Part shown: one piece after another, positions 1 through 61,379 of the stretch | How positions within the stretch are numbered: the first letter of the stretch is position 1 | Layout: the number at the start of each line of letters is the position of its first letter | Virus record (IMG/VR): IMGVR_UViG_3300036846_000573 | Location: 1 to 61,379 of that record | DNA length: 61,379 nucleotides | From: a virus | Lineage: Duplodnaviria > Caudoviricetes | Direction: 5' to 3' (one strand) | Notes under the pieces: model-generated | Database searches by the model: none | What the model was told of the DNA's origin: nothing | What the model saw: only the letters and a program-made list of their open reading frames with translations | Translations under genes and position numbers: made by a program

Positions 1-146
1 TTATTCATGGCACCCCTCCCAGAAAACTACGTTTTCTGGTTGCAAGCCATAGGCCAACTCAAGAACCCAGAGGCATCCTGGGTTTTTTAAAAGTCAAGAT
101 TTTTTAGTGTAAAATATTTAGGAAAGCCGTAAAATTTCTCGACGGT

Positions 147-175
147 TTGACACTGATTCCCGACCGACCCATATT
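147..175 (+). promoter_or_regulatory. Sigma70-type promoter for putative ncRNA
   Basis: TTGACA(147-152)-17 nt-CATATT(170-175); the second copy keeps TGGACA-17-CATATT (61142-61170). Confidence 0.65.
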
Positions 176-179
176 TAAA

Positions 180-330
180 CCAACCGCAAGGTTGGGATTA
201 GACGGGCCGTGCCCTAAAACCCCGTCCGACTGTGGAGTGGTTTCGTTCAAGCTCCATTACCGCTCGCGACAGTTCTCCCTTTAGGTGAAGGTTAAACTCG
301 CCGCCCTGTCCCCAGGGCGGCGATTTTTTT
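180..330 (+). ncRNA. Putative structured small RNA, unknown family (allele 1)
   Basis: Lies between promoter and terminator; stems CCAACC-GCAA-GGTTGG, GACGGG/CCCGTC, ACTGT/ACAGT, GAGTGGT/ACCGCTC; compensatory changes in allele 2. Confidence 0.6.
294..330. terminator. Intrinsic terminator, possibly bidirectional
   Basis: TCGCCGCCCTG-tccc-CAGGGCGGCGA followed by T7, with AAA upstream. Confidence 0.85.
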
Positions 331-368
331 GCGCTCGGCTAACGCGGTTCTCTCAATCCGCCCGGCTA
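331..368 (-). ncRNA. Solitary TIGR-like guide unit
   Basis: Reverse complement reads AGCCG-ggcggatt-GAGAGAACCG-cgttagcc-GAGCG; TATAAT about 5 nt upstream, hairpin directly downstream. Confidence 0.8.
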
Positions 369-573
369 GAATATTATATTTTAGTGAAGTTAATTTTAGA
401 AGAAGTAATTTTTGGTGAAGTAGGTTTTTTGTCACTTGCGTCTACGGGGTTCAGGTGGCGGCGGGCCATGCCCGGGGGGGCTTGGACAGGCCCGGCCCCG
501 GGTGCGAGAACCACGACGGCAGTGAATTTAGACGGCCCACCTTAGGTGAAGGCCAACCCAATGGAGCAACGCA

Positions 574-14481: not shown

Positions 14482-14759
14482 GTGTTATTAATAACAATGT
14501 TATTAGCAACAACGCCTATGCCGGTCAGTATTTCGATACCATCATCGCCAGCCAGCTTCCCGGTGATTTATTAAAACGTTTAGATCTTACAGCAGAAGTG
14601 ACGTCCGATCCGTATTTTCTAAAGACCGTACTAAGATTAACCAGTAAAAACCATGGTATAGACTTGACAATTGATCTCGAACCCTTACGTACTGGCAGCC
14701 GGGAGGCATGCCTTAAGGTGCCGGAGTTAATCATCACGCATCTGTGTGCCGTGAGATGA
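14478..14759 (+). CDS. Hypothetical protein
   Basis: Coupled ORF, ATG 14478. Confidence 0.6.
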   Translation: MSVINNNVISNNAYAGQYFDTIIASQLPGDLLKRLDLTAEVTSDPYFLKTVLRLTSKNHGIDLTIDLEPLRTGSREACLKVPELIITHLCAVR

Positions 14760-15067
14760 CACCCGAGAGTAAAATCAAGCGTGTCATCAGCACGCTGTTA
14801 AAATCTTATGGTCACGAGGTGTTTTATTATATGCCGGTGCCGACCGGGTACGGTGGGACCATCGTGGATTACGTAGGATTTTGCTGCGGGTTGGGGTTCG
14901 CCATCGAGGCCAAGGCGCCGGGTAGGAAGCCGACTGTCCGTCAGAAAGCGACGATGGAGAAAATCTCCGAGGCCGGCGCAAAAACTTTTATCATCGATGG
15001 ACCAAAGGGTGTCGGTGAGTTAGACGAGTGGCTGACCACTACCTGTCGTGAAAGCCGTAAATCGTGA
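14756..15067 (+). CDS. VRR-NUC domain nuclease / Holliday junction resolvase
   Basis: TPESKIK, D...AIEAKAPGRKPTVRQ. Confidence 0.85.
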   Translation: MTPESKIKRVISTLLKSYGHEVFYYMPVPTGYGGTIVDYVGFCCGLGFAIEAKAPGRKPTVRQKATMEKISEAGAKTFIIDGPKGVGELDEWLTTTCRESRKS

Positions 15068-15938
15068 GAGCACCGAGATAAGGGAGCGAGCCGTAAGTCG
15101 TGAGAGTACCGATGTGGATGAGTGAGCCGAACGATGTGAGAGTACCGACCAAAGGGAGCGAGCCGCACCACAAGAGAGAACCGTCGAGATGAAGCGAGCC
15201 GCGAACGAAGAGAGAACCGTCTCTCGGGAGCGAACCGAGTTATGTGAGAGGACCGAGAGGTGCGAGTGAGCCGTGCGATATGAGAGAACCGTCGCTTGTG
15301 AGCGCAGCCGTACTGGCTGAGAGAACCGAGGTGAATGAGCGAGCCGTTGGTCACGAGAGTACCGAGCAAGAGGAGTGAGCCGAAGGTCGCGAGAGTACCG
15401 AGTAAGTCGAGTGAGCCGTGCTACCCGAGAGAACCGTGATGAACGAGCGAGCCGACGGTCACGAGAGTACCGAGGAAATCGAGCGGCTACTCGCTTGGGT
15501 GGCTGGTATTTGGCCCAGTCTGGAGGCGCAACTGCGCGCAGCCATAAGCCGAGTGTTACAAGAGAACCGAGATAGATGAGCGAGCCGGAACTGCTGAGAG
15601 TACCGTGTTGCCCGAGTGAGCCGAATGTATCGAGAGAGCCGTGAACCAAGAGCGAACCGAGTGCTGCGAGAGGACCGAAAATACGGAGTGAGCCGCATCA
15701 TCAGAGAGAACCGAAAGTTCTGAGTAAGCCGTGTACCAGGAGAGAACCGAAACCGCTGAGCGAGCCGTACGTCGTGAGAGAACCGAAAGTTCTGAGCGAG
15801 CCGTCCGTGATGAAAGAACCGAGGAATGCGAGCCGAGTGTCACGAGAGAACCGAGATCGTTGAGTGAGCCGACTACTAAGAGAGAACCGCACCGTATGAG
15901 TGAGCCGAGTTCACTGAGAGCACCGAAAGCGCTGAGCG
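15053..15938 (+). repeat. TIGR-like array 1: 23 units of 36 nt, with one interruption
   Basis: Alternating GAGYGAGCCG and GAGAGWACCG repeats separated by variable 8-nt spacers; 12 units, ~60-nt insert at 15486-15546, then 11 units. Confidence 0.92.
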
Positions 15939-15949
15939 TAATTTAACCA

Positions 15950-17536
15950 ATGGAGCCCCCTAAAATGTACGTCACGCAGGACACTCTGCATGTCGTTGTG
16001 CCATGGCGCGCCGACCTGCAGCAAGTCATCCCTCATGCGCGATCGTTTGTGTATAACAACGAGCGCATGCTGCTCGTACCCAACCGGCATGAGGAAGCCA
16101 AGGTCGCGAGAAATCTAGGCGTCCCGATACCAGCGCCCATACTTACACGTTACGACTGGCGCGGCGGCACGCCGTGGGATACTCAAAAAACCACGTCGGC
16201 AATGCTGACCGAATCACCCCGCGCCTATGTGCTCAACGAGTTTGGCACGGGTAAGACGCGGAGCGTGATATGGGCGGCCGACTATCTGCGGCGCAACCAA
16301 GCCATCGGCAAGGTCTTGATCGCCGCGCCGTTGAGCACACTCACACCGGTGTGGGAGACTGAGTTATTTAGGGTGATCCCCAATGCGCGGGTAAAAGTTT
16401 TACACGGCAACAAGGAGACGCGCCTCGAACGTCTGAACACTGATGCCGATTGGTTTATTATAAATCATCATGGGTTGGCATTGATCAAGGACGAACTGAT
16501 CAAGCGTGGTTTTGATGTGGTTGTGTTCGACGAGTTGGCGACGTTTCGTAATCGGTCGACCCAACTCTGGAAGACCGCCAATGAGATCATTCAAGGCGGC
16601 CCGGCTTACGCCAACAACCCTAAACCAAAATATGTCTGGGGATTGACCGGATCACCGACACCCAAGGCGCCGACCGATGCCTGGGGGCAAGTGAGATTGC
16701 TAACCCCGGAAAGAACCACGAAAAGCCTTACTCGGTTTCGCGATTTAACCATGCGCCAGATCACGAGCTTTAAATGGATCAAGCGCCCGGGAGCGATGGA
16801 CATCGTGCAGGAGGCGATGCAACCATCCGTTCGCTTCGCGTTGTCTGATGTTGTCGAGCTACCCGACACAACGTACCAGACGCGGGTGGTGGAGTTGGAG
16901 AGCGAAGCGCGTCGAGCCTATAAAATTATGTTCGATAAGATGAGAGTCCTAACCAATAACGGCGAGACAATCACCGCTGTCAACGAGGGTGTGCTGCAAT
17001 CTAAGTTACTACAGCTAGCGCTGGGTTATATCTACACCGATAAGCGTGGCGTCATGAAGCTTCCGAACGCGACGCGGTTGGAGGTAGTGAAAGAAATCGT
17101 CGAGGCGACATCGCGCAAGGTTATATGTTTTGTGCCATTCATTCACGCGCTCGAAGGCGTGGCGGAGTACTTACAGAAATACACGACGGTTGCGGTGGTG
17201 CACGGACAGACACCGGTGGGTGCGCGCAATAAAATTTTCCGCAGTTTTATGGAGCAATCAGAACCACATACGATCGTGGCGCATCCCGGGTGTATGTCAC
17301 ACGGCTTGACACTCACAGCGGCCAATACCATTGTGTGGGTTGGACCGACCAATTCATATGAAACGTACGAACAGGCTAACGCCAGGATCGTAAGGCCGGG
17401 TCAGGTGTCGAAGACGCTGATCGTGCATGTCGTTGCGACGCCTGTCGAGAAGCTGGCTTACAAGCGCCTGCAAGAGCGTGGGACATTTCAGGGCATGTTG
17501 TTGGAATTGTTCCGGCAACAGGAGTTAGAGTTTTAG
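15950..17536 (+). CDS. SNF2-family (SF2) helicase
   Basis: GTGKT, APLS, FDELA, LTGSP, HGLTLT, QANARIVRPGQ. Confidence 0.92.
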   Translation: MEPPKMYVTQDTLHVVVPWRADLQQVIPHARSFVYNNERMLLVPNRHEEAKVARNLGVPIPAPILTRYDWRGGTPWDTQKTTSAMLTESPRAYVLNEFGTGKTRSVIWAADYLRRNQAIGKVLIAAPLSTLTPVWETELFRVIPNARVKVLHGNKETRLERLNTDADWFIINHHGLALIKDELIKRGFDVVVFDELATFRNRSTQLWKTANEIIQGGPAYANNPKPKYVWGLTGSPTPKAPTDAWGQVRLLTPERTTKSLTRFRDLTMRQITSFKWIKRPGAMDIVQEAMQPSVRFALSDVVELPDTTYQTRVVELESEARRAYKIMFDKMRVLTNNGETITAVNEGVLQSKLLQLALGYIYTDKRGVMKLPNATRLEVVKEIVEATSRKVICFVPFIHALEGVAEYLQKYTTVAVVHGQTPVGARNKIFRSFMEQSEPHTIVAHPGCMSHGLTLTAANTIVWVGPTNSYETYEQANARIVRPGQVSKTLIVHVVATPVEKLAYKRLQERGTFQGMLLELFRQQELEF

Positions 17537-18310
17537 CCGCTTTGTCGGAGAGTGCCGAGTACCGTGAGCGAGCGAGCCGTTCCAAAGGAGAGGGCCGTAT
17601 GGGATGAGCGAGCCGTCAGGGCATGAGAGTACCGGATAGAATGAGCGGGCCGATTGTGATGTGAGCACCGTCAGTATCGAGCGAGCCGTTTGGTCTGAGA
17701 GTACCGAGAGTTGTGAGCGAGCCGGCAGCGAGGAGAGGACCGATCGTCTAGAGCGAGCCGTGCCGGAAGAGAGCGCCGTCTACGAGGAGTGAGCCGCCCA
17801 TCATGAGAGAACCGAGTAGCACGAGCGAGCCGGGCTGTGTGAGAGCACCGATTTGAGGAGTGAGCCGAGAAACAGGAGAGAACCGAAGTAGATGAGTGAG
17901 CCGAAGAACCGGAGAGAACCGGTGAGCAAGAGCGAGCCGAAGAACAAGAGAGAACCGCGCCCGTTGAGTGAGCCGAAGTGCATGAGAGTACCGCGTCCGA
18001 CGAGCGAGCCGCTCGACCTGAGAGAACCGTGGACGAAGAGTGAGAGGCGAGCCGAAACTAGCGAGAGAGCCGAGAGAGTTGAGCAAATGAGTGAGCCGGT
18101 CAACGTGAGAGAACCGTATGAAGTGAGCGAGCCGGCCCGTATGAGAGAACCGTAGGCGGGGAGCGAGCCGAGGAAGATGGAGAGAACCGCACAGCTAGAG
18201 CGAGCCGCCCGCCATGAGAGAACCATCCGCCAAGAGTGAGCCGCCAAGTATGAGAGTACCGTGATGCGTGAGCGAGCCGTTTGATATGAGAGTACCGTCT
18301 CGCCTGAGTG
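17535..18310 (+). repeat. TIGR-like array 2: 21 units
   Basis: Same dual-repeat/dual-spacer 36-nt unit, with a few 7- or 9-nt spacers and short insertions. Confidence 0.92.
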
Positions 18311-18350: not shown

Positions 18351-19346
18351 ATGAGCGACGATGTTACGCCGAGCACATCAACCACACCCACGCCGATCAC
18401 GATGCGCGAGGCGCTCGACGAGCTAACGTTTATCGAGAGATTGACCAAGCGCGACATGGACGCGGCCAAGCTGCTGGGCGAGGCCGAGGTCAGATATCTC
18501 GTAGACGCGTACTATATAGCACAAGAGGATCGAAAGCGCACCGCTGCCCAGGTCCGCGCGCTGACGACGATCACCGAGGCGCACCCCCACGCCGAGCCGA
18601 GCATCATCGTCAACTGGCTGCGCAGCCAGAACGACACGATCGAGGGGCAGATCAAGCGAGTTCTCGATGCGTATACACAACAGCATATCATGGGGCCGTG
18701 GATGCGCGACGTGTTTGGCATCGGCCCGGTGCTGAGCGCGGGTCTTCTCGCGCATATCTATATGGGCCTATGGTGCGCCGTCTGTCACGGTCACGACGAA
18801 GAAGACTGCCAGCGTCGGCAGAATAACCCTAAGCTTAAGCTATCAGAACATACGTACCAGCCGGTCGAGAGCCTCCCGACAGTCGGTCATATCTGGGCAT
18901 TTGCGGGAATTGCCGGCAAGGATCAGAAGCCTTGGGGCAAGAACCAAAAGCGGCCCTACAATGCCAAGCTGAAAGTCTTGCAGTGGAAGGTCGGGCAGTC
19001 GTTTATGTGGTTCAGCTATAACGGCAAGTGCTACTATGGTCAGGAGTACCGCCGCCGCAAAGAGTACGAGATCGCGCGCAACGTGCCCGGCGGCTGGAAC
19101 GCAGCGGAAGTCGAGCGCCGGCTGAACGACAAGATGCGTAAGCCGACAGAGGATGCGATGAAGTATTTATCCCAGGGCATCCTGCCACCAGCGGCGATGG
19201 ATGGCAGGGCCAGACGTTACGCCACTAAGAAGTTCCTAGCGCATATGCATAATGTGTGGTTCGAGAAAAAGTTTGGCCGTCCTGCGCCGCTGCCCTACCC
19301 GATCGATATACTCGGCCACGCGCATTACGAGCCACCGCCTGTCTAA
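18351..19346 (+). CDS. tasA: Nop-domain / IS110 C-terminal-like RNA-binding protein, TasA-like, no nuclease domain
   Basis: Coiled coil, FGIGPVLSAGLLA, IWAFAG, YNAKLK, RARRYATKKFLAH; no RuvC/DEDD or HNH motif; lies directly after array 2. Confidence 0.8.
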   Translation: MSDDVTPSTSTTPTPITMREALDELTFIERLTKRDMDAAKLLGEAEVRYLVDAYYIAQEDRKRTAAQVRALTTITEAHPHAEPSIIVNWLRSQNDTIEGQIKRVLDAYTQQHIMGPWMRDVFGIGPVLSAGLLAHIYMGLWCAVCHGHDEEDCQRRQNNPKLKLSEHTYQPVESLPTVGHIWAFAGIAGKDQKPWGKNQKRPYNAKLKVLQWKVGQSFMWFSYNGKCYYGQEYRRRKEYEIARNVPGGWNAAEVERRLNDKMRKPTEDAMKYLSQGILPPAAMDGRARRYATKKFLAHMHNVWFEKKFGRPAPLPYPIDILGHAHYEPPPV

Positions 19347-19379: not shown

Positions 19380-19769
19380 GTGCCAATGTCACCAAGCGAG
19401 ATGATCGACAAGTACATTAAATTAAGAAACGTTATAAATAAGATCAAGGACGATCACAAGACACAACTAGAGCCCTACACCAATGTGATGAACCAACTCG
19501 AAACTGAGATCCTGCGCCACCTCGACGATACTAACTTACAATCTATCAGCAGTCCGAGCGGCACGGCGTTCAAGCAGATTGCTACGAGCGTTGTCGTGAA
19601 GGACTGGCCGCAAACCCTGGGTTATATCCAGCAATACGAACTATGGGATCTGCTCGAAGCGCGGGTCTCGAAGACAGCGGCGCTCGAAGTCGTCGAGGAA
19701 ACTAAAAAACCAATCCCGGGCGTGCAAATATCCCAGGCGGTGGTTGTGCGAGTGCGCGTATCATCGTGA
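19380..19769 (+). CDS. Hypothetical replication-module protein
   Basis: RBS; helical N-terminus. Confidence 0.75.
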   Translation: MPMSPSEMIDKYIKLRNVINKIKDDHKTQLEPYTNVMNQLETEILRHLDDTNLQSISSPSGTAFKQIATSVVVKDWPQTLGYIQQYELWDLLEARVSKTAALEVVEETKKPIPGVQISQAVVVRVRVSS

Positions 19770-19797
19770 AGCTACCACAGTTCAACAGGAGACAGCT

Positions 19798-20853
19798 ATG
19801 TCACTAATACCATTAGACTCCAACCGCATACCGGCGGCGTTCGCCGGGCGTCGGTCGACGATGCTCGACAATGCCCGTGCGGGCGTGCAGAGTTCGTTTG
19901 CCGTAATCAGTGTTAAAGGCCGCGTGTGGAGGACCAAGCACCGAGGGGAGGAAACGCCTGTGCTGGATGCGCGCGGCCAACCGGTAGCAACACTCGAAGT
20001 TGTTATCGTTGGCGTCGCGCCCAATGTCAGCAAGACGTTTTATCAAAAGGGTTTTGTCGAGGGCAGCGACGACTCACCGGATTGTTTCTCGCTCGACGGG
20101 ATCGCGCCCGACGCAACTGCGCCTAAGAAGCAGAACGAGACCTGCGCTACGTGTCCGCAGAATATGTGGGGTTCGCGTGTCACCGACAACGGCAAGCGGG
20201 CCAAAGCCTGTTCCGACCAGCGGCGCATCGCGGTAGTGCCGACGGGCGACATCCTTAATAAGAACATGGGCGGGCCGATGTTGCTGCGTCTGCCACCGAC
20301 CTCGCTTCCCAACCTCGCTTCCTACAGCGATTTTTTGGAGCGCAAGGGCGCCGACTTCCCCTACGTCGCAACGAGGTTGGGGTTCGATTACGACGTCGCG
20401 TATCCGAAGGTCAGCTTCGACGCGCTGGGATATCTCGACGATGCGCAAGCCGCGCAAGTCGTCGAGGTGATGAGCAACCCGCTGATCGACAGGATGCTCT
20501 ACGAAGCAGCCCCTACCGAGTTGGGAGCCGCAGTGGCGGCGGGCGTTAAGCCGGGCGGGCAGGTTGTCCCGATGGCGCGTCCGGCGATAGGTCCAGCAAC
20601 GGTGCCGGCGGCTCCCCCGGTAGCGACGCCTCAGAAGGTGCCGTACAATCCGTTCGCGACGGCTGCGCCAGCAGAGCCTGCACCTACATCGCCACCGCCG
20701 GCCCCGGTCATCGAACAGCCACCCACAGAAACTGTCGAGGCAACCCCGGCTCGGGCTTCCAACAGACGGCGGCAGCCGTTACCTTCGCCGATCACCGCGC
20801 CGCCCGATCTGGCGGGGGCAATCGACGACCTGCTCGACGAGCAGTCGGCATAG
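19798..20853 (+). CDS. Putative ssDNA-binding/annealing protein
   Basis: PDCFSLDG..CATCPQN..KAC; Pro-rich linker; acidic tail; start ATG 19798. Confidence 0.6.
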   Translation: MSLIPLDSNRIPAAFAGRRSTMLDNARAGVQSSFAVISVKGRVWRTKHRGEETPVLDARGQPVATLEVVIVGVAPNVSKTFYQKGFVEGSDDSPDCFSLDGIAPDATAPKKQNETCATCPQNMWGSRVTDNGKRAKACSDQRRIAVVPTGDILNKNMGGPMLLRLPPTSLPNLASYSDFLERKGADFPYVATRLGFDYDVAYPKVSFDALGYLDDAQAAQVVEVMSNPLIDRMLYEAAPTELGAAVAAGVKPGGQVVPMARPAIGPATVPAAPPVATPQKVPYNPFATAAPAEPAPTSPPPAPVIEQPPTETVEATPARASNRRRQPLPSPITAPPDLAGAIDDLLDEQSA

Positions 20854-20889
20854 AGCCGCTACTCCAGAGAGAACCGCAAGCAATGAGCG
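20853..20889 (+). ncRNA. Solitary TIGR-like guide unit
   Basis: GAGCCG-ctactcca-GAGAGAACCG-caagcaat-GAGCG. Confidence 0.85.
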
Positions 20890-20902
20890 CTAGATAAAAA
20901 AT

Positions 20903-20941
20903 CGGCGGGTTCGAGCTACCACCCTCGAACCCGCCGCATTT
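20903..20941 (+). terminator. Terminator-like hairpin after the solitary guide
   Basis: CGGCGGGTTCGAG-8 nt-CTCGAACCCGCCG then CATTT. Confidence 0.65.
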
Positions 20942-24779: not shown

Positions 24780-27700
24780 CTAAAATCGCATCGAATCTTC
24801 CATGAAGCGGCGCTGTTTCGGGCTGACCTTCAGACCATAATCCTCTGGCTTGCGAAGCTGATCGCGCTGTTGTTTCTGTGCCTTGTATAACTCTGAGTAA
24901 TTTATTCTCTCGCCCTCGTGCTGGTTGTCGGCGTTGAATTGATCGACTGCCGTCCTGTCGCCCGAGCGCAACCACGCATCGATCGCGTGTTGTCGGTCTT
25001 CTTGGAGGTAGTTGCGGGCCTGTATGCCGGCATTACGTCTGTCGTAGAAGTACGCGTTGGGGTTAAGCCCGATCGCGGTGCCGACCGTACCGGCGACGGT
25101 TGTCTCGCCCGGCTCCCGGATCACCGCGCCGCGACTGTCGGTGAGACCGGTCGCGCGCTCGTTGTAGGCACGGAAGATGTCACGCGTAACGCGCGGCTGC
25201 AGTTGATCCACGGCCTTGGCGTAATTGCCGTTGATCAGATTGTGCAAACCGGCCTGAACCTGGGTTGCCGCCGCCATTGCTGGACCGCCAACGGCATTAC
25301 CAACCATCATGCCAAAGCCTTTAGCATCAAAGCTCTCCGGCCCTTTGATACCGCCCATGTTTGACAACCCGATATTTGTGTGCACGTCGAACCCGGCGAG
25401 ACCTGCCGCGCCGCGCGACAGGAACAAACTCATTGGCTCGCCCCAGCGCTCAGCCATCCACCGCCGCACCTCAGGCTCGCGGTCGCGCGGCTTATCGCGC
25501 CCTTCGATCCAGTCGAGCAGCCCGAACATGCCCGACACGCCGACGCCGAATACGTTACCGGTGACACCGCCGACCAGCGCGCTGTTCATCGCAATCAGCC
25601 CGGTGATCGCCTTGACCGCCTCGCGGCCTTCCGGGGTTTTAAAACTCATCTCTTTGGCGATGGCAGCCATCGTCGAGTAAAGCTGCATCGCGGTGACCTT
25701 GTACTGCATGATCGGCCCGGTCCAGCCTCCGAACGGACCTTGCTGCGTCGCCATGCGCGGGATGTTCCACGGCGCGACGCTGGGCGCGATGCGCCCCATC
25801 ATCTCCCGTGCGTGGTCCAACGACTCCGAGACGTTACCCTTGGTGTCGCGCATCGCCATATCGAACGCCGCCTTGGCAGCGGCAGACCGGTTCATGACAT
25901 CGACGGTGTGCTCGGCGACGGTAAACAGATCCATCATGTTATTGGCGAGGCGGCGTGCAACGCCGCCGGCTCCACCACCGGTCGTGTCGAACCCGCCGGG
26001 CTGTGCGAGGCGGCGCATCTCCAGCGTGATCGAGTGCGTGAAGGCGCCTTCGCGGTCCATCATGTCGACCAATGCCTGGGCATGCGCCGGGTCGCCCATC
26101 GATGCCTGTAGGCGTTTTAACATGACGCCGCGCATGTCCCAGTTCGACGTCTTCATGTCGCTGTGCATGACCGTCGCCATGTTGTGCAGACCCTGGCGCC
26201 ACGCGGTCGGTGCGACATCCAACAGCGACTTGGTCAGCATCACAGCGGTGCGGCCATAGCCAAACCGCGCTCCGAGATAAGCCATCGCGCGGATGTTGGT
26301 CTCGACCGCTTGCAATACCGGGTGCGCCACGCGCATCAACTGCATGGTAAAAGCCAGCCGGCTGACGCCGCGCCCCAGCTTGGCTGCGAGCGACATCGAC
26401 CGGTCGCCATCTATGGGTGTCGCCCGCTGCGTCATCTCGTGCAGCGCGTCGTTGCCCCGCTCGTACTCGGCCTGACGCGTCAGACCCTGGTTACGCAGCG
26501 ACGTAACCTCGCGGCGCATCGCCGACAACGCGGTCGTTTCCTCGCCGCCATGCAGCAGATGCCCGACACGCGAGGCGGAGCTAAGCGTGTCCATGTAGAG
26601 GACTTTGGCGGCGTCGGTCGTCGCGCCCTTGATGCCTTGGCGGCGCGCGCGGGTGCGCGCCTGCTGCGAACTGGTGGCGTTGCGCAGGCGCAGCCCTACC
26701 ATTTCATCCCTGACCGCCTTGATCTGGTCGGTATCGAGGCGGTAGCGCTGCATCTGGTTGATGGCTTTGTCGGAGACCCCGCTGTCCTTTAAGTCCTGCA
26801 CCTCCTGGGGTGATAGCTTGGTGCGGGACTGCAGGGCTTTATCGAGGTTCTCGATGGTCCCTTCGGGCAAAGCATTCCTGGCGTTATAGGCTTCCTTGCG
26901 CGCAACGCCGTGCACGTCGCTCGCCCCTTCGTCTTCGAGTTGCCGGGCACGCGCCATGGCTTCGCCGCGCCGCTCGAACATCTCGACGCCGTAGCTCTCC
27001 GGGTGCTCCTTGTCGCCCCAGCTTACGATGTAGTCGCCGTAGCGGCGCTGCGGGAAGTAATCCCCCTCGATCCACCCGTTGCGCCATTCCTTGGCGAGCG
27101 CCTGGGCAAACGCCCTGCTGTTCTGCCAGCGCTCACCGACCGCATCGGCGATCGGGCTGGCGTCGGGGTTGCTGATAAAGTCTTCCAGCGCGCGGCGGCT
27201 CTTGAACGTATTTTCTAAAATGCCGCGCTCGGCTGGGGTCCAGTCGGCGAATGTCCGGTCGGCGATGGATTTAAAGACCGCCTGCTTCTCCTCGACATCC
27301 ATCGCGCGATGCATGTCTTGCAGTTCTTTGTATAACCCACGCTCGGGCGCCGGCAGGTTGTCGTAAGTTTTCTGTAAGTTCTCAGCGACCTTTAGCTGCT
27401 CAGAATTAAGATGCGCGTTGTCGGCCAGAAAATCTTTACCGCCTAGTCTAGCTGCGACACCATAGGTCGCGCCGCGCTTGGTCGGCAGCACGCCGACATC
27501 GACGATAAGCTGTCTGAAATCGTCACTCGCTTGCTGGATGCGGTGGCCCATGTCTTGGACCTTGTCGCCCCAGCGGCGCATGAACTCCTCGGTCTCGTGA
27601 AACGCGTTCTTCTGCGCCTCGTGCACCTTCTCGATGCTCGGCGTGACGTCCTTGTTTGCCTCGACCAGATCCTTGGTGGACCGGAACGGGCTGACCGTGC

Positions 27701-30700
27701 GGCGGACGGCGCTGCTGACGCCGCCCTTGCGGTCGGCGACGTATTGCACGGCCTTGCCGACACCGCGCTCCACCGCCGCCGGCGACCCCATAAACCCCGT
27801 CCGCATCGCCTCGCCCATCGGGCGCGCAGCTTCGCGTGTCGGTTCGTCGGGCAGTGCGTCGGTTGGAATGTCGTGAGACATATCCGGCGCTGCGCGGTCC
27901 TCGAACAGCGCAGGCTTGTCGATCGATGCTGTCCTCCGATTGAAATATCGGTTTGTCCCAAAAAATTCACGCGCCTCGCGGTCGAGCGCGCCACCGGCCT
28001 CGGTTATATCGGTCAGCGGGCGCAGCATCGCTTCGAGCGTGCTCTTGCCGTCGCGCCCTAAATGGAACACTTGCCGCATGATCTCGACAAACGAGTGCCA
28101 CAAGGACGGCTGCGGCGTGTCGTAACCCAGACGCGTCATCTCCTGACGAAATGCTAGGCTAGGTTCTTTACGAGCTAAAATTGCCTGAAACCTTGACTTC
28201 GTCATGACCAATGTCGGGATCTCATGACCCTGGCTGGCTGCGGCGTAGTCGAGGAGAAACCTATCGTCGTCAGTCAGCGTTGCGTCGCTGTTCTTAATTT
28301 TTGAAAGTTCTTTTTGCATCGCCCGTATGGCGTCGTAATGCCGCTGTTCTTCGGGCTCTAAAGGCTCGCCATATTCGACCTTCTCGAACAGGGTTCGGAA
28401 ATAACGCCGCGTCGTTGCGTGCAACGCTTCGTGGACAAGGGTCTCGACGGGTCGTGGAGCTTTCTCGTTTATGCCGATGATATCGTGATGTGACTCAAAT
28501 GCACCCAAAGAACCACTATCGATAGCCTCTTGCCACGCGTTTCTAAAACCTTCGTTGTGAGCTAGATTCCGCATCAGCCGGTAGCTTCCGACCGGCACGT
28601 CGGCAGAACCGAGAAGCCGCTGTATTTGTTTGGACAACTCGACAAGATGCGGCGCCAGCGCCTGCGCCGGCCTATTATCGATGACGTCTTCTTGCAGGAC
28701 TTTGTGCAGCGAGACGGTTCTGCCGGCTTTGTTGGACGCGTTCAACCGCTCGCGTATCGGCCGGCTAAGAGCGCGGTCTGCCAAGTTGCTGGCAACCTTA
28801 GTCCGTGCGTCTATCGCCTTAGAAGACTGCGCCGGCCTATCCTCGCTGAGATCCGGGTTGTCGCGCAGCGCCTGGAATCTTGCCATCGACTCTTCGTCGG
28901 TGGGTAGTTTGATCTCCTTGGCTTGTTCTCGCGCGCGTGCCCGAGGCTCGGCCTTAGGGGCTATCGTGCTGTCGATATGCGCCTTGGCCTGCGCCTGGAT
29001 CTCGCCCAACCGGTCGAGCGCGTTGACTTGTTTCATCTCACCGGCAAGCTCGGTGATCTTACCCTCGATGCGGGTAAGCTTGTCCGAGGAGGTTTTACCT
29101 TCGGACTTAAGTCTTGCTTGCTCAGTGTTGTACTGCTCGCGCAGTCTATCAGCCTGCGCCGCACCCTTGTCGCCGGCTTCCTTAACCGCCTCGATGTGAC
29201 GGCCCATAAAGTCGGCGAAATTATTGGCGACGCTCGGACGCCCCCGCCCGCCCACCCGTCTGCCGTACAGGTCGGCGGCTGTCTCAACGTCGTGGTGATT
29301 ATTTAAGATATCCTGGACCAGCGCCTTGCCGATCGTTGTCTTGTTGGTCGTCGTCGAGGCAAGGCGCATCGCTTGGCCTTGCTGCTCGCGCGGGATATTC
29401 AATTCATCGCCCAGCGTGCGCCCGCCTGCGACACCTTCTCGGGCGGCGCCGCGCCGCAGCGGTTGTTGGGTAACCTGTTCGGCAACCGGCTCGGTGCTGA
29501 CCGGACGTTCCTGCGCCGCGCGCAGTTGCTCGGCTCGGGCTGCCACCGCCTGCTCGACCGCGCCACGTTTTTGTAACGTTAGCGTAGTAGTTGGTTTAGG
29601 TTGAGTTGGTTTAGGTTGATTCACAGGTTCTGCCTTTGGTTCCAAAGGCTTAGCCTGCTCGCTCGCAGCCCGTCGTTTGACCTTCTCGACCGTGAAACTT
29701 GGCTTCTCGCCAACACCCTCGGCTTTAGCCTGGGCCAGCGCTTCTCCTACTGTCTTAGGAGGAGCTACCTCACGACCGGTAGTGGGAATAATAGGGGCGG
29801 TTTTTTCAGTAATATCGGACGGTGTTTCGGCCCGCGCCGCCAATGGCTTAGCAATCTCGCTCGCAGCCGGTGGTTTAATTCCAGAGGGTATTTCAGGGGG
29901 TATTTCGGGGGGTGCTGTCGTCCCCGTTGTGGGTGGTGGTTCTTCCGGATAAACCGCGCCGCCGCGCACCCGCGCATCGGCGGTCGCCGCCTCGATCGTC
30001 GGACCTTTGCCGATGACATCGCCGTCGATGTTCTTGGCGACGACCTGCCCCTTATTCACATCATCCGGTTCGGTGCGTATCTCAGAAGATGGTGCCGCTC
30101 GCTCGACTGTCGGTCGTGCTGGCGCTGTCGGCTCTGTCGTGGGCGCTGGCCGTAGTTCTGGTGGTGGCGCTGGTGGTTCTAGCGCGGGAGGCTCTGCGCG
30201 CGCTGGTGTTAGCGTCGGTGTGGTAGGTCGTTCCTGTGGTGGCCCAGCCGCTGCTCCGCCTTCAGGCGGCTGGGCCATTGATCTTTCGAGTTCCTGTATG
30301 CGCTCTTCTGAATAGCCGCGTCTCGCCAACTCCGTGCGTTGCTGCGGGGCAAACCTAGCAGTCGGCGCTAAAGCGGCTGCGACTTCCGGCGCGACACCCT
30401 CGCCCGGTGCGCCTTCCGCGCCGCCCTCGCCAGCCGGCGGTGGCGCGCCTAGCGTGCCCTCGACGGTATCTCTGGCTACATCTCTGGTTACGGCTTTAAC
30501 GCGTGCGGCGATGCCGCCCGGCTCACCTTCCGGTGCTGCGCCGGGTGCGCCCGGTGGTGCGCCTGGAGGTGCGCCGGGTGGAGCGCCTCCTGGCTCTGGA
30601 GGAAGCCCGCCCAGCGGGGTTTCGCTAGGAGGCGGTAACGCTGGCCTCGGCGGCGGCAAGGCCAACCGGATGGCCGCAGCCTCGGCGGCTGGCACTCCTG

Positions 30701-31901
30701 GTGTCGCCGCCGGTGGTGGTGTTGCCCTAGCCGCCGGTGCCGGCCGCGCACCGCCGCCGGTCAATCCGACGATCCCAACCAGACCCGTGTTGTTTACTAA
30801 ACTTGCAACCCGCTGCCCGGCGGTCGGCTGCTCGTAGGGTTTACCGCCGGCTGTGTCGATAACCGGGCCGAGTTCGGTCTGTGCCGCACCCAAGGCTTCG
30901 AGACCGGCCGCTTTACCGAGCAGCCCCGGCGCAGCGAGGGTCGGCGCGGCGGCAGCCTCCCCTGCTTTACCCGCGACATTGTCGACGACGCTCTTGACCC
31001 AGCCACCTAACATCTCCTGACCGGGTCTGGTCATGATCAGCGCCGTCTGCGCCCCCCCAACGGCAGCACCGACGATGACGCCCATCGCTGTCGCTGCCGG
31101 GTCGCCGCCGGATTTGACGTTGGCGTCGATCCCGCCCAGCGTACCCAGCAAGGCTGCCGCTCTTGGGATCGTGGCAAACCCGCCCGTCGCGGCGCCGGCC
31201 AGGATGGTCGGCACGATCTCCAATGCCGCGCTGGCGGACTGGCTGAGGACCGCCGACACCGAATGGTATTTGTGCCATGCCTCGACGGGGTCGTTGGTAT
31301 CCGGCGCCCAGTCCTTGGTGAATTGCTCCCAACCTTTAAGCTGAGATTCCAACGCGTCTTTGATGGCTGGCGAATCGATATCAAACTGTCTGGCGATAAA
31401 GTCGGCGCCGCGTGTCGCGACGATGCCGATCTTGCGCGCTTCGCCGACGGAGCCGCGAACCAGGGCTTTTCCCGATTCCGCTAAAAAACCCGGCGGCGGC
31501 GCTTCCGGTACATTCGCTTCTGCCGGGCTGGCGTTAAAGGCTTCACCGCCAATGGTGCCCCACGGCGTCTTCATGCCGACAACGGATTTCTCGGGCTTCT
31601 CGGGTTTTGTCGGTTCGGCGGCTGTCGTCGACGGTTCAAGGTCGCCGGCGCCGGGCGGCAAGGGCGCCGGCGCGCTGCTGGTGCCATAGACATCCGGGGC
31701 GTAGCCGATCGCCGGTGGGACTTCGGTGTCGGTCGGGCTGCCGGTAGGCGCCGGTGTTGCCAGAGGTGACGGTGTTACGACGGCGCCGCCGGCCGGCGCC
31801 GGTTCGGGCGACGGCCTGACAGATAGTTGCTCGGTGTCCAGGGCCGGGTCTTGTTCCCCGGTGTCCAAGTAAGGGTCGGTGGGATCGTAAGGGGCGGCCA
31901 T
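24780..31901 (-). CDS. Large virion/ejection (polyvalent) protein, 2373 aa
   Basis: Size and position; zincin-like HEALH motif. Confidence 0.75.
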   Translation of the reverse strand: MAAPYDPTDPYLDTGEQDPALDTEQLSVRPSPEPAPAGGAVVTPSPLATPAPTGSPTDTEVPPAIGYAPDVYGTSSAPAPLPPGAGDLEPSTTAAEPTKPEKPEKSVVGMKTPWGTIGGEAFNASPAEANVPEAPPPGFLAESGKALVRGSVGEARKIGIVATRGADFIARQFDIDSPAIKDALESQLKGWEQFTKDWAPDTNDPVEAWHKYHSVSAVLSQSASAALEIVPTILAGAATGGFATIPRAAALLGTLGGIDANVKSGGDPAATAMGVIVGAAVGGAQTALIMTRPGQEMLGGWVKSVVDNVAGKAGEAAAAPTLAAPGLLGKAAGLEALGAAQTELGPVIDTAGGKPYEQPTAGQRVASLVNNTGLVGIVGLTGGGARPAPAARATPPPAATPGVPAAEAAAIRLALPPPRPALPPPSETPLGGLPPEPGGAPPGAPPGAPPGAPGAAPEGEPGGIAARVKAVTRDVARDTVEGTLGAPPPAGEGGAEGAPGEGVAPEVAAALAPTARFAPQQRTELARRGYSEERIQELERSMAQPPEGGAAAGPPQERPTTPTLTPARAEPPALEPPAPPPELRPAPTTEPTAPARPTVERAAPSSEIRTEPDDVNKGQVVAKNIDGDVIGKGPTIEAATADARVRGGAVYPEEPPPTTGTTAPPEIPPEIPSGIKPPAASEIAKPLAARAETPSDITEKTAPIIPTTGREVAPPKTVGEALAQAKAEGVGEKPSFTVEKVKRRAASEQAKPLEPKAEPVNQPKPTQPKPTTTLTLQKRGAVEQAVAARAEQLRAAQERPVSTEPVAEQVTQQPLRRGAAREGVAGGRTLGDELNIPREQQGQAMRLASTTTNKTTIGKALVQDILNNHHDVETAADLYGRRVGGRGRPSVANNFADFMGRHIEAVKEAGDKGAAQADRLREQYNTEQARLKSEGKTSSDKLTRIEGKITELAGEMKQVNALDRLGEIQAQAKAHIDSTIAPKAEPRARAREQAKEIKLPTDEESMARFQALRDNPDLSEDRPAQSSKAIDARTKVASNLADRALSRPIRERLNASNKAGRTVSLHKVLQEDVIDNRPAQALAPHLVELSKQIQRLLGSADVPVGSYRLMRNLAHNEGFRNAWQEAIDSGSLGAFESHHDIIGINEKAPRPVETLVHEALHATTRRYFRTLFEKVEYGEPLEPEEQRHYDAIRAMQKELSKIKNSDATLTDDDRFLLDYAAASQGHEIPTLVMTKSRFQAILARKEPSLAFRQEMTRLGYDTPQPSLWHSFVEIMRQVFHLGRDGKSTLEAMLRPLTDITEAGGALDREAREFFGTNRYFNRRTASIDKPALFEDRAAPDMSHDIPTDALPDEPTREAARPMGEAMRTGFMGSPAAVERGVGKAVQYVADRKGGVSSAVRRTVSPFRSTKDLVEANKDVTPSIEKVHEAQKNAFHETEEFMRRWGDKVQDMGHRIQQASDDFRQLIVDVGVLPTKRGATYGVAARLGGKDFLADNAHLNSEQLKVAENLQKTYDNLPAPERGLYKELQDMHRAMDVEEKQAVFKSIADRTFADWTPAERGILENTFKSRRALEDFISNPDASPIADAVGERWQNSRAFAQALAKEWRNGWIEGDYFPQRRYGDYIVSWGDKEHPESYGVEMFERRGEAMARARQLEDEGASDVHGVARKEAYNARNALPEGTIENLDKALQSRTKLSPQEVQDLKDSGVSDKAINQMQRYRLDTDQIKAVRDEMVGLRLRNATSSQQARTRARRQGIKGATTDAAKVLYMDTLSSASRVGHLLHGGEETTALSAMRREVTSLRNQGLTRQAEYERGNDALHEMTQRATPIDGDRSMSLAAKLGRGVSRLAFTMQLMRVAHPVLQAVETNIRAMAYLGARFGYGRTAVMLTKSLLDVAPTAWRQGLHNMATVMHSDMKTSNWDMRGVMLKRLQASMGDPAHAQALVDMMDREGAFTHSITLEMRRLAQPGGFDTTGGGAGGVARRLANNMMDLFTVAEHTVDVMNRSAAAKAAFDMAMRDTKGNVSESLDHAREMMGRIAPSVAPWNIPRMATQQGPFGGWTGPIMQYKVTAMQLYSTMAAIAKEMSFKTPEGREAVKAITGLIAMNSALVGGVTGNVFGVGVSGMFGLLDWIEGRDKPRDREPEVRRWMAERWGEPMSLFLSRGAAGLAGFDVHTNIGLSNMGGIKGPESFDAKGFGMMVGNAVGGPAMAAATQVQAGLHNLINGNYAKAVDQLQPRVTRDIFRAYNERATGLTDSRGAVIREPGETTVAGTVGTAIGLNPNAYFYDRRNAGIQARNYLQEDRQHAIDAWLRSGDRTAVDQFNADNQHEGERINYSELYKAQKQQRDQLRKPEDYGLKVSPKQRRFMEDSMRF

Positions 31902-46953: not shown

Positions 46954-46974
46954 CGCACCCCCCCAGAAATATAC

Positions 46975-47781: not shown

Positions 47782-47795
47782 GACTTCCTCCTTGA

Positions 47796-48002
47796 TCAGC
47801 GCACTGAGCCGGGGGCGCTGGTGCCCTTATTGGGTAAACCGACGCCCGTGCCGGTTGGCAGCGTCTTGTTTGCCAGCGCCTTGCGCATGCTGGCCGGCGG
47901 CCCCGGGTTCTCCGGCCCTTTGAATGGTTGCGCCGGCTCGCTCTTATTTCCGTCGCCGCCCCGGCGATAGTTTTTCTTTGGGTCTTCGTAAGTCCCGTTC
48001 AT
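47796..48002 (-). CDS. Hypothetical protein
   Basis: AAGGAG RBS before ATG 48002. Confidence 0.6.
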   Translation of the reverse strand: MNGTYEDPKKNYRRGGDGNKSEPAQPFKGPENPGPPASMRKALANKTLPTGTGVGLPNKGTSAPGSVR

Positions 48003-48012
48003 GTCAATCTCC

Positions 48013-51658: not shown

Positions 51659-51688
51659 CTAGTCCGTACCTCGTTTACATTGCGTGTC

Positions 51689-61090: not shown

Positions 61091-61126
61091 CACTCTTTAC
61101 ATTCGGTACTCTCATATTTAACGGCT
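61091..61126 (-). ncRNA. Solitary TIGR-like guide unit specific to the right-end allele
   Basis: Reverse complement reads AGCCG-ttaaatat-GAGAGTACCG-aatgtaaa-GAGTG, followed by GC hairpin 61058-61090. Confidence 0.85.
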
Positions 61127-61174
61127 GTTTTTATCTCTAACTGGACATTGACACTCGATCAATCCATATTCCGA

Positions 61175-61339: not shown

Positions 61340-61377
61340 GCGCTCGGCTAACGCGGTTCTCTCAATCCGCCCGGCTA
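61340..61377 (-). ncRNA. Duplicate of solitary guide 331-368
   Basis: Identical sequence. Confidence 0.8.
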
Positions 61378-61379
61378 GA

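What the first reader, a model, noticed from the sequence alone, without database searches (positions are those of the whole stretch)
331..368. Solitary guide mini-gene at the genome end
Seen: one perfect unit on the - strand (spacers ggcggatt / cgttagcc), 15 kb from the arrays. TATAAT lies about 5 nt upstream and the 298-323 hairpin lies immediately downstream, convergent with the structured ncRNA. Inference: an independently expressed single guide. I found no target for GGCGGATTGGCTAACG in the window by eye.
Basis: partly seen in the sequence, partly recalled or inferred. Interest (0 to 1): 0.75.

Follow-up and report, generated by a model that had tools for sequence, protein, structure and literature searches.

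The report
Stand-alone TIGR guide RNA gene
A soil phage that carries long TIGR guide-RNA arrays also carries a complete single 36-base guide unit, with its own promoter-like box and hairpin, far from the arrays, which suggests that these newly discovered guides can also be encoded as single genes.

Summary
Window 367→332 (- strand) reads AGCCG-GGCGGATT-GAGAGAACCG-CGTTAGCC-GAGCG. This is one complete 36-nt unit of the dual-repeat TIGR arrays at 15053-15938 and 17548-18310, and it scores 35.1 of 35.14 bits. [quoted passage not shown] A perfect TATAAT ends 5 nt upstream, and an 11-bp GC hairpin starts 9 nt downstream. ORF 18351-19346 is a nuclease-less Tas (TasA-like) protein.

Two parts of the description need correction:
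- **Not a physical genome end.** The two window ends are alternative versions of one locus, at contig depth 20 versus 6.9.
- **Not the only solo unit.** There is an identical copy at 61341-61376 and two other solo units at 61091-61126(-) and 20854-20889(+).

Nine distinct solo units of the same repeat type occur in other viral contigs.

No target for this guide was found in the window, in viral contigs or in 401 Rhizobiales-like genomes; every hit was at chance level. Expression and loading on Tas remain untested.

Verdict: a real single-unit tigRNA gene, and a new variant of a known kind.

The parts
332..367 (-). Solo tigRNA unit. 5' half edge AGCCG (367-363), spacer A GGCGGATT (362-355), loop repeat GAGAGAACCG (354-345), spacer B CGTTAGCC (344-337), 3' half edge GAGCG (336-332).
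   Evidence: PWM 35.1 of 35.14 bits. Covered without differences by a contig of depth 52.5.
373..378 (-). Perfect -10 hexamer TATAAT, 5 nt upstream of the unit. The predicted start is at A367 or G366 (inferred).
   Evidence: 19 TATAAT in the window. The scan found no -35 partner.
378..422 (+). 2.9 copies of a 15-nt direct repeat (ATTTTAGTGAAGTAA-like) across the -10 to -50 region of the putative promoter. They may be operator or UP-like sites (inferred).
   Evidence: The motif is local only.
298..330 (.). 11-bp GC hairpin (298-323) with T7 on the + strand. It is the terminator of the + strand ncRNA and the hairpin directly behind the solo unit on the - strand.
   Evidence: Fold of 372-285(-) gives z -2.8. 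Fold of the 60 nt downstream of the unit gives z -7.3.
180..331 (+). Structured ncRNA of about 150 nt, convergent with the solo unit. Promoter-like site TTGACA-17-CATATT at 147-175.
   Evidence: Fold z -4.1 for the left arm and z -6.5 for the right arm. G237A with C263T between the arms keeps a pair. No Rfam family at or above gathering score.
61341..61376 (-). Identical copy of the solo unit in the right-end arm of the record. It is the same locus in the minor variant.
61091..61126 (-). Second solo unit, AGCCG TTAAATAT GAGAGTACCG AATGTAAA GAGTG. It is present only in the minor variant, inside a 156-nt replacement, and is followed by a 13-bp GC hairpin.
   Evidence: 33.8 bits.. Downstream fold z -4.7.
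20854..20889 (+). Third solo unit, AGCCG CTACTCCA GAGAGAACCG CAAGCAAT GAGCG. It starts on the base after the stop codon of ORF 19744-20853, at the end of the tas operon, and is followed by hairpin 20902-20936.
   Evidence: 35.1 bits.. Downstream fold z -7.0.
15053..15938 (+). TIGR array 1, dual repeat. Edge GAG[C/T]GAGCCG, loop GAGAGNACCG, 8-nt spacers, 36-nt period.
17548..18310 (+). TIGR array 2, same repeats. It runs straight into the tas gene.
18351..19346 (+). tas gene, 331 aa. Nop-domain protein with no nuclease domain found (TasA-like). C-terminal PLPY316-PIDILGH323.
   Evidence: Profile against PDB: TasR entry 9mty E 4e-10, TasH 2.3e-5. Model pLDDT 82.4. The top 10 Foldseek hits are all TasH or TasR chains. 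phrog_4285. Motif.
106..121 (-). Candidate target of the 61091 unit, not of the 332 unit. CTAAATATTTTACACT matches 14 of 16, or 1 mismatch plus 1 rU:dG wobble. It overlaps the -10 (TAAAAT, 110-115) of a predicted + strand promoter. The same site lies at 60998-61013.

Best explanation
Window 332-367(-) is a one-unit TIGR array, that is, a single tigRNA gene of this phage's own TIGR-TasA system. The proposed steps are:
1. Host RNA polymerase starts at the TATAAT box (378-373), at or within a base of A367. The primary transcript would then already carry the mature 5' end, the half edge AGCCG with box C = CCG.
2. Transcription runs through spacer A, the loop repeat, spacer B and the 3' half edge GAGCG (box D = GAG). 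It pauses or ends at the GC hairpin 323-298, giving a precursor of roughly 70-75 nt.
3. The Tas dimer from ORF 18351-19346 binds the loop repeat and the two half edges. Its conserved Tyr/His loop (Y316, H323), or a host RNase, trims the 3' side after GAGCG and leaves the 36-nt guide.
4. This Tas has no nuclease domain, so the complex would bind a 16-bp site that reads GGCGGATT then GGCTAACG on one strand, and would block transcription or replication there rather than cut.

The target lies outside this genome, in a host or a rival element, and is not identified.

Shown here: the unit, its perfect grammar, the -10 box, the hairpin, the Tas protein and its motif, and recurrence of solo units. Inferred: the transcription start, termination, processing, loading and mode of action.
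For: - **Unit.** It matches 20 of 20 fixed positions and scores 35.1 of 35.14 bits. Of the five hits of 14 bits or more outside the arrays, four are full units and one is a weak 15.9-bit hit at 51688-51723.
- **Grammar.** Faure et al. [quoted passage not shown] They also state that mature tigRNAs run from mid-edge to mid-edge (section 5). The solo unit is exactly that, and the window's own arrays begin with AGCCG and end with GAGCG or GAGTG.
- **Box motifs.** Edge and loop repeats both start GAG and end CCG. This is the box C/D covariation described in section 8 of that paper.
- **Sharp boundaries.** In the 9 distinct solo units of other viral contigs and the 3 of the window, conservation starts and stops exactly at the 36-nt borders.
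- **Promoter.** TATAAT lies 5 nt upstream. Over 48 distinct first array units plus 13 solo units, -10-like hexamers fall 17 times at offsets 0-7 and 12 times at offsets 8-34, with a peak at offset 5.
- **Hairpins.** All three window solo units are followed by strong hairpins, z -7.3, -4.7 and -7.0.
- **Tas.**. The Y..LGH motif has the same Y+7=H spacing as the catalytic Y289/H296 of SpTasH. Y316 and H323 are invariant in 26 homologues.
- **Conservation among strains.** The unit lies in a contig shared by both variant arms with 0 differences. The neighbouring 137 nt of ncRNA differ at 12 letters and 5 gaps.
- **Mode of action.** TasA proteins act as RNA-guided repressors in reporter assays (Xu et al., 10.64898/2026.09.09.750476, section 12).
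Against: - **No expression data.** No RNA run is held for this sequence, so neither expression nor loading was observed.
- **Weak promoter and terminator calls.** The promoter scan lists no - strand promoter here because no -35 was found. On the - strand of the left arm the hairpin has no U-run and was not called a terminator.
[quoted passage not shown] This unit has only half edges, so processing is not assured.
- **No target above chance.** The best site in the window has 3 mismatches, or 1 mismatch plus 2 wobbles, and 66 of 1000 shuffled guides do as well. The exact 16-mer gives 9 hits (5 distinct, unrelated) in viral contigs. It gives scattered hits over many phyla in genome contigs. In 401 genomes of one order it gives 33 places at up to 1 mismatch, against about 40 for the reversed control by my count.
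- **No independent comparison.** The exact unit was not found in metagenome contigs, so the guide has no comparative support beyond the co-occurring strains.
- **Not a general pattern.** Hairpins behind solo units are not general in other contigs. In 5 other whole records with related Tas, units cluster near tas, with at most one distant candidate.
Confidence: 0.65

Rival explanations
1. The unit is functional but is not an independent mini-gene. It would be cut by Tas out of a longer leftward transcript that crosses the control region. That transcript could be a leader of the leftward PEP-CTERM gene (start codon at window 8 = 60900) or an antisense RNA to the + strand ncRNA.
For: The solo unit at 20854-20889 is clearly of this embedded kind. 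It starts right after a stop codon and has no promoter of its own, as does the solo unit in L081. No -35 box was found for the 332 unit. The - strand tail of the hairpin is weak in the left arm.
Against: A perfect TATAAT lies at the spacing expected for a start at the mature 5' end. The 11-bp, 9-GC hairpin directly behind the unit would impede read-through. No edge-repeat sequence lies upstream to direct a 5' cut.
Confidence: 0.15
2. The unit is a silent relic or a by-product of recombination. It could be a unit detached from an array, or the seed of a new array, with no present function.
For: The TIGR-tas module moves between unrelated phages: the closest Tas (67% identity, L161) shares no other gene with the window. 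One solo unit is present or absent between co-occurring strains. No target was found.
Against: The unit is perfect at all 20 fixed positions, whereas many array units are not. It is unchanged between variants whose neighbouring ncRNA differs at 12 letters and 5 gaps. It has a -10 box and a hairpin in the right places. Three solo units in one genome all carry the same unit-plus-hairpin design with unrelated hairpin sequences.
Confidence: 0.12
3. The unit is a decoy rather than a guide. It would be an RNA that soaks up the Tas protein of a competing element, in the way phage-borne solitary CRISPR repeat units act as RNA anti-CRISPRs, or it would tune the phage's own Tas level.
For: By analogy only. 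PMC10651486 describes viral solitary repeat units that mimic CRISPR repeats (search listing and start of abstract only). In 4 of 5 other viral records that hold a solo unit, no tas was found on the same record, but those four are 16-70% complete.
Against: This phage encodes its own Tas and arrays with the same repeats. The unit keeps two full 8-nt spacers and the exact guide geometry, which a decoy would not need.
Confidence: 0.05

Closest known systems
Dual-repeat TIGR arrays with Tas proteins (Faure et al. 2025, PMC12045711; sections 4-8, 10 and 49 read, plus part 1 of 400 of Table S1)
   Same: Same alternating edge and loop repeats with box C/D ends. Same 36-nt unit, running from half edge to half edge. 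Terminator-like hairpin behind the last unit. Tas Nop-domain protein in the genome. The 16 nt of variable sequence match the figure given for the Salicola phage system.
   Different: It has one unit instead of the usual 5-15. It lies 14.7 kb from the nearest array and 18 kb from tas, on the opposite strand, with its own -10 box. The smallest natural array I saw in that paper's data is the two-unit upstream array next to TaTasR.
Stem-loop tigRNAs 'expressed from flexible genomic positions' (Xu et al. 2026, bioRxiv 10.64898/2026.09.09.750476; sections 5 and 10-13 read)
   Same: Guide units can sit upstream of, downstream of, or inside tas. The authors raise, without settling it, whether units have promoters of their own. 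TasA acts as an RNA-guided repressor.
   Different: Those are stem-loop units near or within tas. This is a dual-repeat unit far from tas. Their survey looked only around tas loci, so distant solo units would not have been seen.
Virus-borne mini-CRISPR arrays, solitary repeat units and cr-like RNAs (PMC6858448, PMC10651486, 10.1101/2023.03.03.530964; search listing and start of abstracts only)
   Same: Phage- or locus-borne arrays of minimal size that supply one guide or one repeat to an effector encoded elsewhere. Some act in regulation or in conflicts between viruses.
   Different: A different RNA family and a different effector. A CRISPR guide pairs with one strand, while a tigRNA splits its guide over both strands.
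Box C/D small RNA genes of archaea and eukaryotes (as discussed in PMC12045711, sections 8 and 10)
   Same: [quoted passage not shown]
   Different: No K-turn or L7Ae partner, and no methylase. The target is DNA. The unit is 36 nt long.

Membership tests
TIGR-Tas, dual-repeat type | Two different short repeats (edge, loop) alternating with two short spacers, in a unit of about 36 nt | tested here: met
   Arrays have period 36 and an 18-nt register of A/B repeats. The solo unit has half edge, 8, loop 10, 8, half edge = 36 nt.
TIGR-Tas, dual-repeat type | Box D at the start and box C at the end of both repeats, covarying between edge and loop | tested here: met
   Edge GAG[C/T]GAGCCG and loop GAGAGNACCG both start GAG and end CCG. 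The criterion is from PMC12045711, section 8.
TIGR-Tas, dual-repeat type | A Tas protein with a Nop domain encoded in the same element | tested here: met
   ORF 18351-19346. Profile hits TasR entry 9mty at E 4e-10 and TasH at 2.3e-5. The top 10 Foldseek hits for the model (pLDDT 82.4) are TasH or TasR chains.
TIGR-Tas, dual-repeat type | An array begins with a 5'-truncated edge and ends with a 3'-truncated edge followed by a terminator | tested here: met
   The solo unit runs from AGCCG to GAGCG, then A7 and an 11-bp hairpin. Flanks outside the 36 nt show no repeat sequence.
TIGR-Tas, dual-repeat type | C-terminal Tyr/His processing loop in Tas | tested here: inconclusive
   Window Tas has PLPY316PIDILGH323 and SpTasH has RPLY289VQEKLGH296, with the same spacing and a shared LGH. 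Y316 and H323 are invariant in 26 homologues. The match was made by eye, because the BLASTP alignment does not reach the C-terminus, and the model is of low confidence at 317-326.
TIGR-Tas, dual-repeat type | The unit is transcribed, processed to 36 nt and bound by Tas | not testable with these tools
   No RNA run is listed for the sequence. This needs small-RNA sequencing and a pull-down.
TIGR-Tas, dual-repeat type | A DNA target with spacer A matching one strand and spacer B the other, adjacent | tested here: inconclusive
   No site with 2 or fewer mismatches lies in the window. Hits elsewhere are at chance level. The host is unknown.
Independent gene (own promoter and terminator) | A -10 box at start-site distance from the mature 5' end | tested here: met
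   TATAAT at 378-373(-), 5 nt before A367.
Independent gene (own promoter and terminator) | A -35 box at 16-18 nt | tested here: not met
   The scan lists no - strand promoter ending at 373. By eye the best hexamers match 3 of 6.
Independent gene (own promoter and terminator) | An intrinsic terminator on the unit's own strand | tested here: inconclusive
   The hairpin is present. The - strand tail is called terminator-like in the right arm but not in the left arm.

The most novel reading that the evidence does not exclude
Phage TIGR-TasA systems may keep part of their guides as dispersed single-guide genes, each with its own transcription signals. These would be gained and lost as small cassettes between co-circulating strains, and would act as regulators of the phage's own control region rather than as weapons.

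The case rests on the minor variant's extra unit (61091-61126). Its two spacers match, in the published both-strand geometry, a site 77 nt away that overlaps the -10 box of a predicted promoter, with 1 mismatch plus 1 wobble. Only 2 of 5000 shuffled guides do as well locally.

If true, this would be a first natural target of a phage TIGR guide and a glimpse of how new units arise. It would also offer a guide source for the 'arrayless' Tas branch that Xu et al. mention.
Probability: 0.2. Interest if true: 0.8.

Novelty: new variant of a known kind. Interest (0 to 1): 0.55.

Why it matters
TIGR-Tas was described only in 2025, and its natural targets, expression units and means of gaining guides are all open questions (PMC12045711, section 10; Xu et al., section 13).

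Published surveys look for arrays around tas genes. A complete guide unit 15-18 kb from tas, on the other strand and with its own promoter-like box and hairpin, shows three things:
- Annotation restricted to tas neighbourhoods can miss guides.
- A guide may be expressed on a different schedule from the arrays.
- Single units exist as separable cassettes; one of them is present in one strain variant and absent in the other.

It also gives a small, well-defined construct of under 120 nt. With it one could test whether half edge repeats suffice for loading and 3' trimming.

Tried and rejected
- **Known RNA genes.** Rfam at gathering score over the whole window gave no family. Rfam at E up to 1 on 1-600 gave only weak hits far below gathering score, which I judge hairpin-driven. 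No tRNA was found.
- **Self-targets of all 44 array units plus 3 solo units.** With 2 or fewer mismatches there were 3 hits in the published geometry, 1 in the opposite order, and 0-4 in four control geometries. There is no enrichment, so I do not claim the arrays target this genome.
- **The 332 unit's best site.** 31233-31248 has 1 mismatch plus 2 wobbles, and 66 of 1000 shuffled guides reach that quality. Rejected as evidence.
- **16-mer GGCGGATTGGCTAACG in public collections.**
  - Viral contigs gave 9 stretches, which are 5 distinct sequences unrelated to each other's families and to the window.
I expect about 280 by chance from 596 billion bases.
  - In 401 genomes of the order around an Agrobacterium-titled genome there were 33 places in 32 genomes at up to 1 mismatch. 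I counted about 40 places by hand for the reversed control. The only exact match is the centre genome, which I had chosen because it had that match.
- **Relatives of this locus.**
  - The exact unit was not found in metagenome contigs.
  - Neighbour ORF 574-1425 has 1 weak relative in viral contigs and none in metagenome contigs.
  - The ncRNA core has none in viral contigs.
  - Tas as a single query found none in viral contigs, but the alignment found 472.
  - Tas has no tblastn match in cultured-phage records.
- **Self-targets of solo units elsewhere.** Four solo units in other records have no site with 2 or fewer mismatches in their own, partly incomplete, records.
- **Survey near tas.** Of 80 tas loci with up to 10 kb of flank, 21 hold 3 or more units by my window-derived PWM. 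The 4 'solo' calls there (L164, L173) sit in degenerate arrays by my reading. Loci with other repeat types were not scored.
- **RNA evidence.** No RNA holder is listed, and run X2 covers next to nothing of the stretch.
- **Literature not seen.** Supplements of the bioRxiv preprints are closed, and the PDF supplement of PMC12045711 could not be read. Figures S4-S6 and TIGRSafari may list single-unit arrays that I could not see.

Full report
**What is there.**
On the - strand, window 367 to 332 reads AGCCG GGCGGATT GAGAGAACCG CGTTAGCC GAGCG. The window holds two long arrays on the + strand, at 15053-15938 and about 17548-18310. They have a 36-nt period. Two 10-nt repeats, GAGAGNACCG and GAG[C/T]GAGCCG, alternate every 18 nt and are separated by 8-nt variable stretches. 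GAGAGAACCG with up to one mismatch occurs 50 times, against 3.72 +/- 2.09 in 100 shuffles.

I built a weight matrix from 40 array units, using only the 20 non-spacer positions. The finding scores 35.1 of a possible 35.14 bits. Outside the arrays only five places reach 14 bits:
- 332-367(-);
- an identical unit at 61341-61376(-);
- 61091-61126(-), at 33.8 bits;
- 20854-20889(+), at 35.1 bits;
- a weak 15.9-bit hit inside an ORF at 51688-51723, which I take as chance.

The unit is therefore real and not a chance match, but it is not the only solo unit.

**What system it belongs to.**
The arrays match the dual-repeat TIGR arrays of Faure et al. (PMC12045711; I read sections 4-8, 10 and 49). [quoted passage not shown] Mature 36-nt tigRNAs run from mid-edge to mid-edge. 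[quoted passage not shown] Here the edge is GAG[C/T]GAGCCG and the loop is GAGAGNACCG. Both start GAG and end CCG, as the box D/box C covariation rule requires.

ORF 18351-19346 (331 aa) follows array 2 directly.
- Pfam finds nothing in it. It has 2501 homologues.
- A profile of 26 of these hits the solved TasR entry 9mty at E 4e-10, TasH at 2.3e-5 and an IS110-family recombinase at 0.002.
- Its AlphaFold model (pLDDT 82.4) has TasH and TasR chains as all ten best Foldseek matches.
- The Nop and coiled-coil part starts near residue 22, and the model is almost wholly helical. I find no nuclease domain, so it is TasA-like, with a Cys-rich insertion at 141-152.
- Its C-terminus, PLPY316PIDILGH323, has the same Tyr-to-His spacing and LGH as RPLY289VQEKLGH296 of SpTasH. 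Y289 and H296 are that protein's catalytic residues for guide processing (PMC13421893, passages).
- Y316 and H323 are invariant in the 26 homologues. Other dual-repeat Tas sequences in Table S1 of Faure et al. carry the same Y..LGH motif (part 1 of 400 read).

**Anatomy of the solo unit.**
The unit is an array reduced to one unit. Conservation begins at AGCCG and ends at GAGCG, and the flanks (ATTCT upstream, CAAAAAAA downstream) are not repeat sequence.
- A perfect TATAAT lies at 378-373(-), five bases before A367. It is one of 19 TATAAT in the window on both strands. A start at A367 or G366 would make the mature 5' end by initiation alone; this is inferred.
- The promoter scan reports no - strand promoter there, because no -35 box fits.
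- The upstream region holds 2.9 copies of a 15-nt repeat at 378-422, found nowhere else in the window.
- Nine bases after the unit comes an 11-bp hairpin with 9 G-C pairs, at 323-298. Its T7 run lies on the + strand, where it ends a convergent, well-folded ncRNA of about 150 nt.
- On the - strand the hairpin's tail is GTTTAACC in the left arm, which was not called a terminator. In the right arm it is GTTTCTTTGC, which was.

All three solo units of the window are followed by strong hairpins of unrelated sequence, with z -7.3, -4.7 and -7.0 against shuffles.

**The 'genome end'.**
The window is a whole IMG/VR record classed as linear. Its ends repeat each other imperfectly. Window 1-148 matches 60893-61040 at 98% identity, and 187-370 matches 61197-61379 at 91%. 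The last 75-odd bases are identical, and the right arm carries extra sequence.

I laid the contigs of the one run that holds the sequence, a soil metagenome that may be the source sample. They show:
- a shared piece over 1-127 at depth 31.3;
- two alternative pieces over 98-323, the left version at depth 20 and the right version at depth 6.9, the latter with 156 letters in place of 38 and 12 other letters;
- both rejoining one piece over 294-1422 at depth 52.5, which has no differences.

Two copies in one molecule should have equal depth. Depths of 20 and 6.9, summing to about the flank's depth, fit two co-occurring variants of one locus that the assembler walked through twice. So the record is most likely a circle, or a permuted or terminally redundant genome, of about 60.9 kb opened inside this locus. 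The unit then sits in the divergent control region between the leftward PEP-CTERM gene (start at 8 = 60900) and the rightward early genes (ORF 574-1425 onward). The depth of 52.5 on the piece that holds the unit is not explained by two variants alone. It may mean that further strains share it.

**Solo units elsewhere.**
I scanned viral contigs for the unit pattern with free spacers. I then applied a strict test: no other repeat-like 10-mer within 120 nt upstream or 156 nt downstream, and enough flank held. Twelve loci, or nine distinct sequences, are solo units. The pattern fixes 19 bases plus one Y, so I expect few if any of these by chance.
- One of them (L051) lies about 570 nt from arrays in a 92%-complete record that has tas.
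- Four others lie on fragments (16-70% complete) with no tas and no other unit.
- Some have a -10-like box 5-7 nt upstream (L051, L054, and weakly L082). Others sit between two ORFs with no room for a promoter (L081), as does the window's 20854 unit.

Over 48 distinct first units of arrays and 13 solo units, -10-like hexamers fall 17 times at offsets 0-7 and 12 times at offsets 8-34, with a peak at offset 5. Overlapping hexamers in one sequence count twice, so this is a modest signal.

Against generality:
- Near 80 related tas genes I found no convincing solo unit.
- In five whole related records, units cluster by tas, with at most one distant candidate.
- Hairpins behind solo units are mostly absent outside this phage.

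**Targets.**
Faure et al. show that spacer A pairs with one DNA strand and spacer B with the other, adjacent or with a gap of up to 2 bp. The two sections word the cut side differently, so I tested both orders.

For the 332 unit:
- The window has no site with 2 or fewer mismatches. Its best site, 31233-31248, is no better than 66 of 1000 shuffled guides achieve.
- The exact 16-mer occurs at chance level in viral contigs and in genome contigs.
- The closest cultured phages by portal protein (54% identity) infect Rhizobium. I therefore searched 401 genomes of the order around an Agrobacterium-titled genome. There were 33 places at up to 1 mismatch, against about 40 for the reversed control by my hand count.

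The target is unknown, and a 16-nt guide cannot be placed without the host genome.

**A lead from the second solo unit.**
The unit at 61091-61126 is present only in the minor variant. Its spacers are TTAAATAT and AATGTAAA. In the published geometry they match CTAAATATTTTACACT at 106-121(-) and 60998-61013(-), 77 nt from the unit. The match is 14 of 16, or one A.C mismatch plus one rU:dG wobble. The site overlaps the TAAAAT -10 box of a predicted + strand promoter.

Composition-preserving shuffles of the two spacers reach this quality within the 487-nt arm in 2 of 5000 trials, and anywhere in the window in 41 of 500. The 'local' frame was chosen after I saw the hit. With 18 implicit tests (3 units, 2 orders, 3 gaps) the corrected figure is near 0.007. 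The arrays as a whole show no excess of self-matches, and four solo units in other records have none. I therefore record this as a lead, not a result.

**Literature.**
I found no mention of orphan, solitary or single-unit dual-repeat tigRNA genes in the main texts of Faure et al. or Xu et al. (term searches). A library search combining TIGR terms with such words also found none. Xu et al. surveyed arrays 'surrounding tas loci' and note a Tas branch without detectable arrays. The smallest natural array I saw is the two-unit array upstream of TaTasR. The supplementary PDF of Faure et al. and the supplements of the preprints could not be read and may bear on this.

**Verdict.**
The finding is a genuine, complete, single-unit tigRNA gene belonging to a TasA-type TIGR system. 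It has sequence signals for its own transcription that are suggestive but incomplete. Its target is unknown, and the setting first described as a genome end is an assembly artefact.

Noticed in passing
window 1-370 and 60893-61379: The two record ends are variants of one locus, at contig depths 20 and 6.9, that rejoin the same flanking contigs. The 'linear' record is probably a circle, or a permuted genome, of about 60.9 kb opened in its control region. The piece 294-1422 has depth 52.5, about twice that of its neighbours, which is unexplained.
   Followed up: partly
window 61091-61126(-), target 106-121 and 60998-61013: An extra solo tigRNA unit, present only in the minor variant, lies inside a 156-nt replacement. 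Its spacers match a site 77 nt away over the -10 box of a predicted promoter, with 1 mismatch plus 1 wobble. Only 2 of 5000 shuffled guides do as well locally.
   Followed up: partly
window 20854-20889(+): A perfect solo unit starts on the base after the stop codon of ORF 19744-20853, at the end of the array-tas operon. It comes just before a strong hairpin (20902-20936) and the DUF927 primase gene.
   Followed up: partly
window 180-331(+), also 61175-61340(+): A structured ncRNA of about 150 nt with a TTGACA-17-CATATT promoter and a strong terminator; fold z -4.1 and -6.5. Between the two variants the first hairpin is replaced by a different hairpin, and G237A pairs with C263T. No Rfam family matches.
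   Followed up: partly
window 378-422(+): Three tandem 15-nt repeats (ATTTTAGTGAAGTAA-like) lie between the solo unit's -10 box and ORF 574-1425. A related TTTTAGTGTAAAAT lies at 101-114. These may be operator sites.
   Followed up: no
window 15950-17536(+): An SNF2-family helicase gene sits between the two TIGR arrays. Array 1 begins inside the end of a 107-aa ORF (14744-15067) that resembles part of an endonuclease family (phrog_93).
   Followed up: no
window 18351-19346(+), residues 141-167: The Tas protein has a Cys-rich insertion (C141, C144, C152, with conserved W-C-x2-C-x-G-x5-C in homologues) inside the Nop domain. It may be a zinc knuckle at the wedge-loop position.
   Followed up: no
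L161 (IMG/VR contig, Tas 67% identical): The closest Tas homologue lies in a phage contig that shares no other tested gene with the window (8 window proteins tried, only tas hit). The array-tas module therefore moves between unrelated phages.
   Followed up: partly
window 37196-49869(-), 24780-31901(-), 60184-60900(-): Five ORFs carry the endosialidase-chaperone (Peptidase_S74) domain, which suggests many tail fibres. There is also a 2373-aa ORF of unknown function and a phage-borne PEP-CTERM protein. The portal is 54% identical to those of 60.9-kb Rhizobium phages (RHph_TM27A group), which lack a Tas match.
   Followed up: no
G410 (record of L163) 91805-91836(-): A single unit-like match with 1 mismatch lies about 70 kb from that record's arrays. 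It may be another distant solo unit or a chance hit.
   Followed up: no
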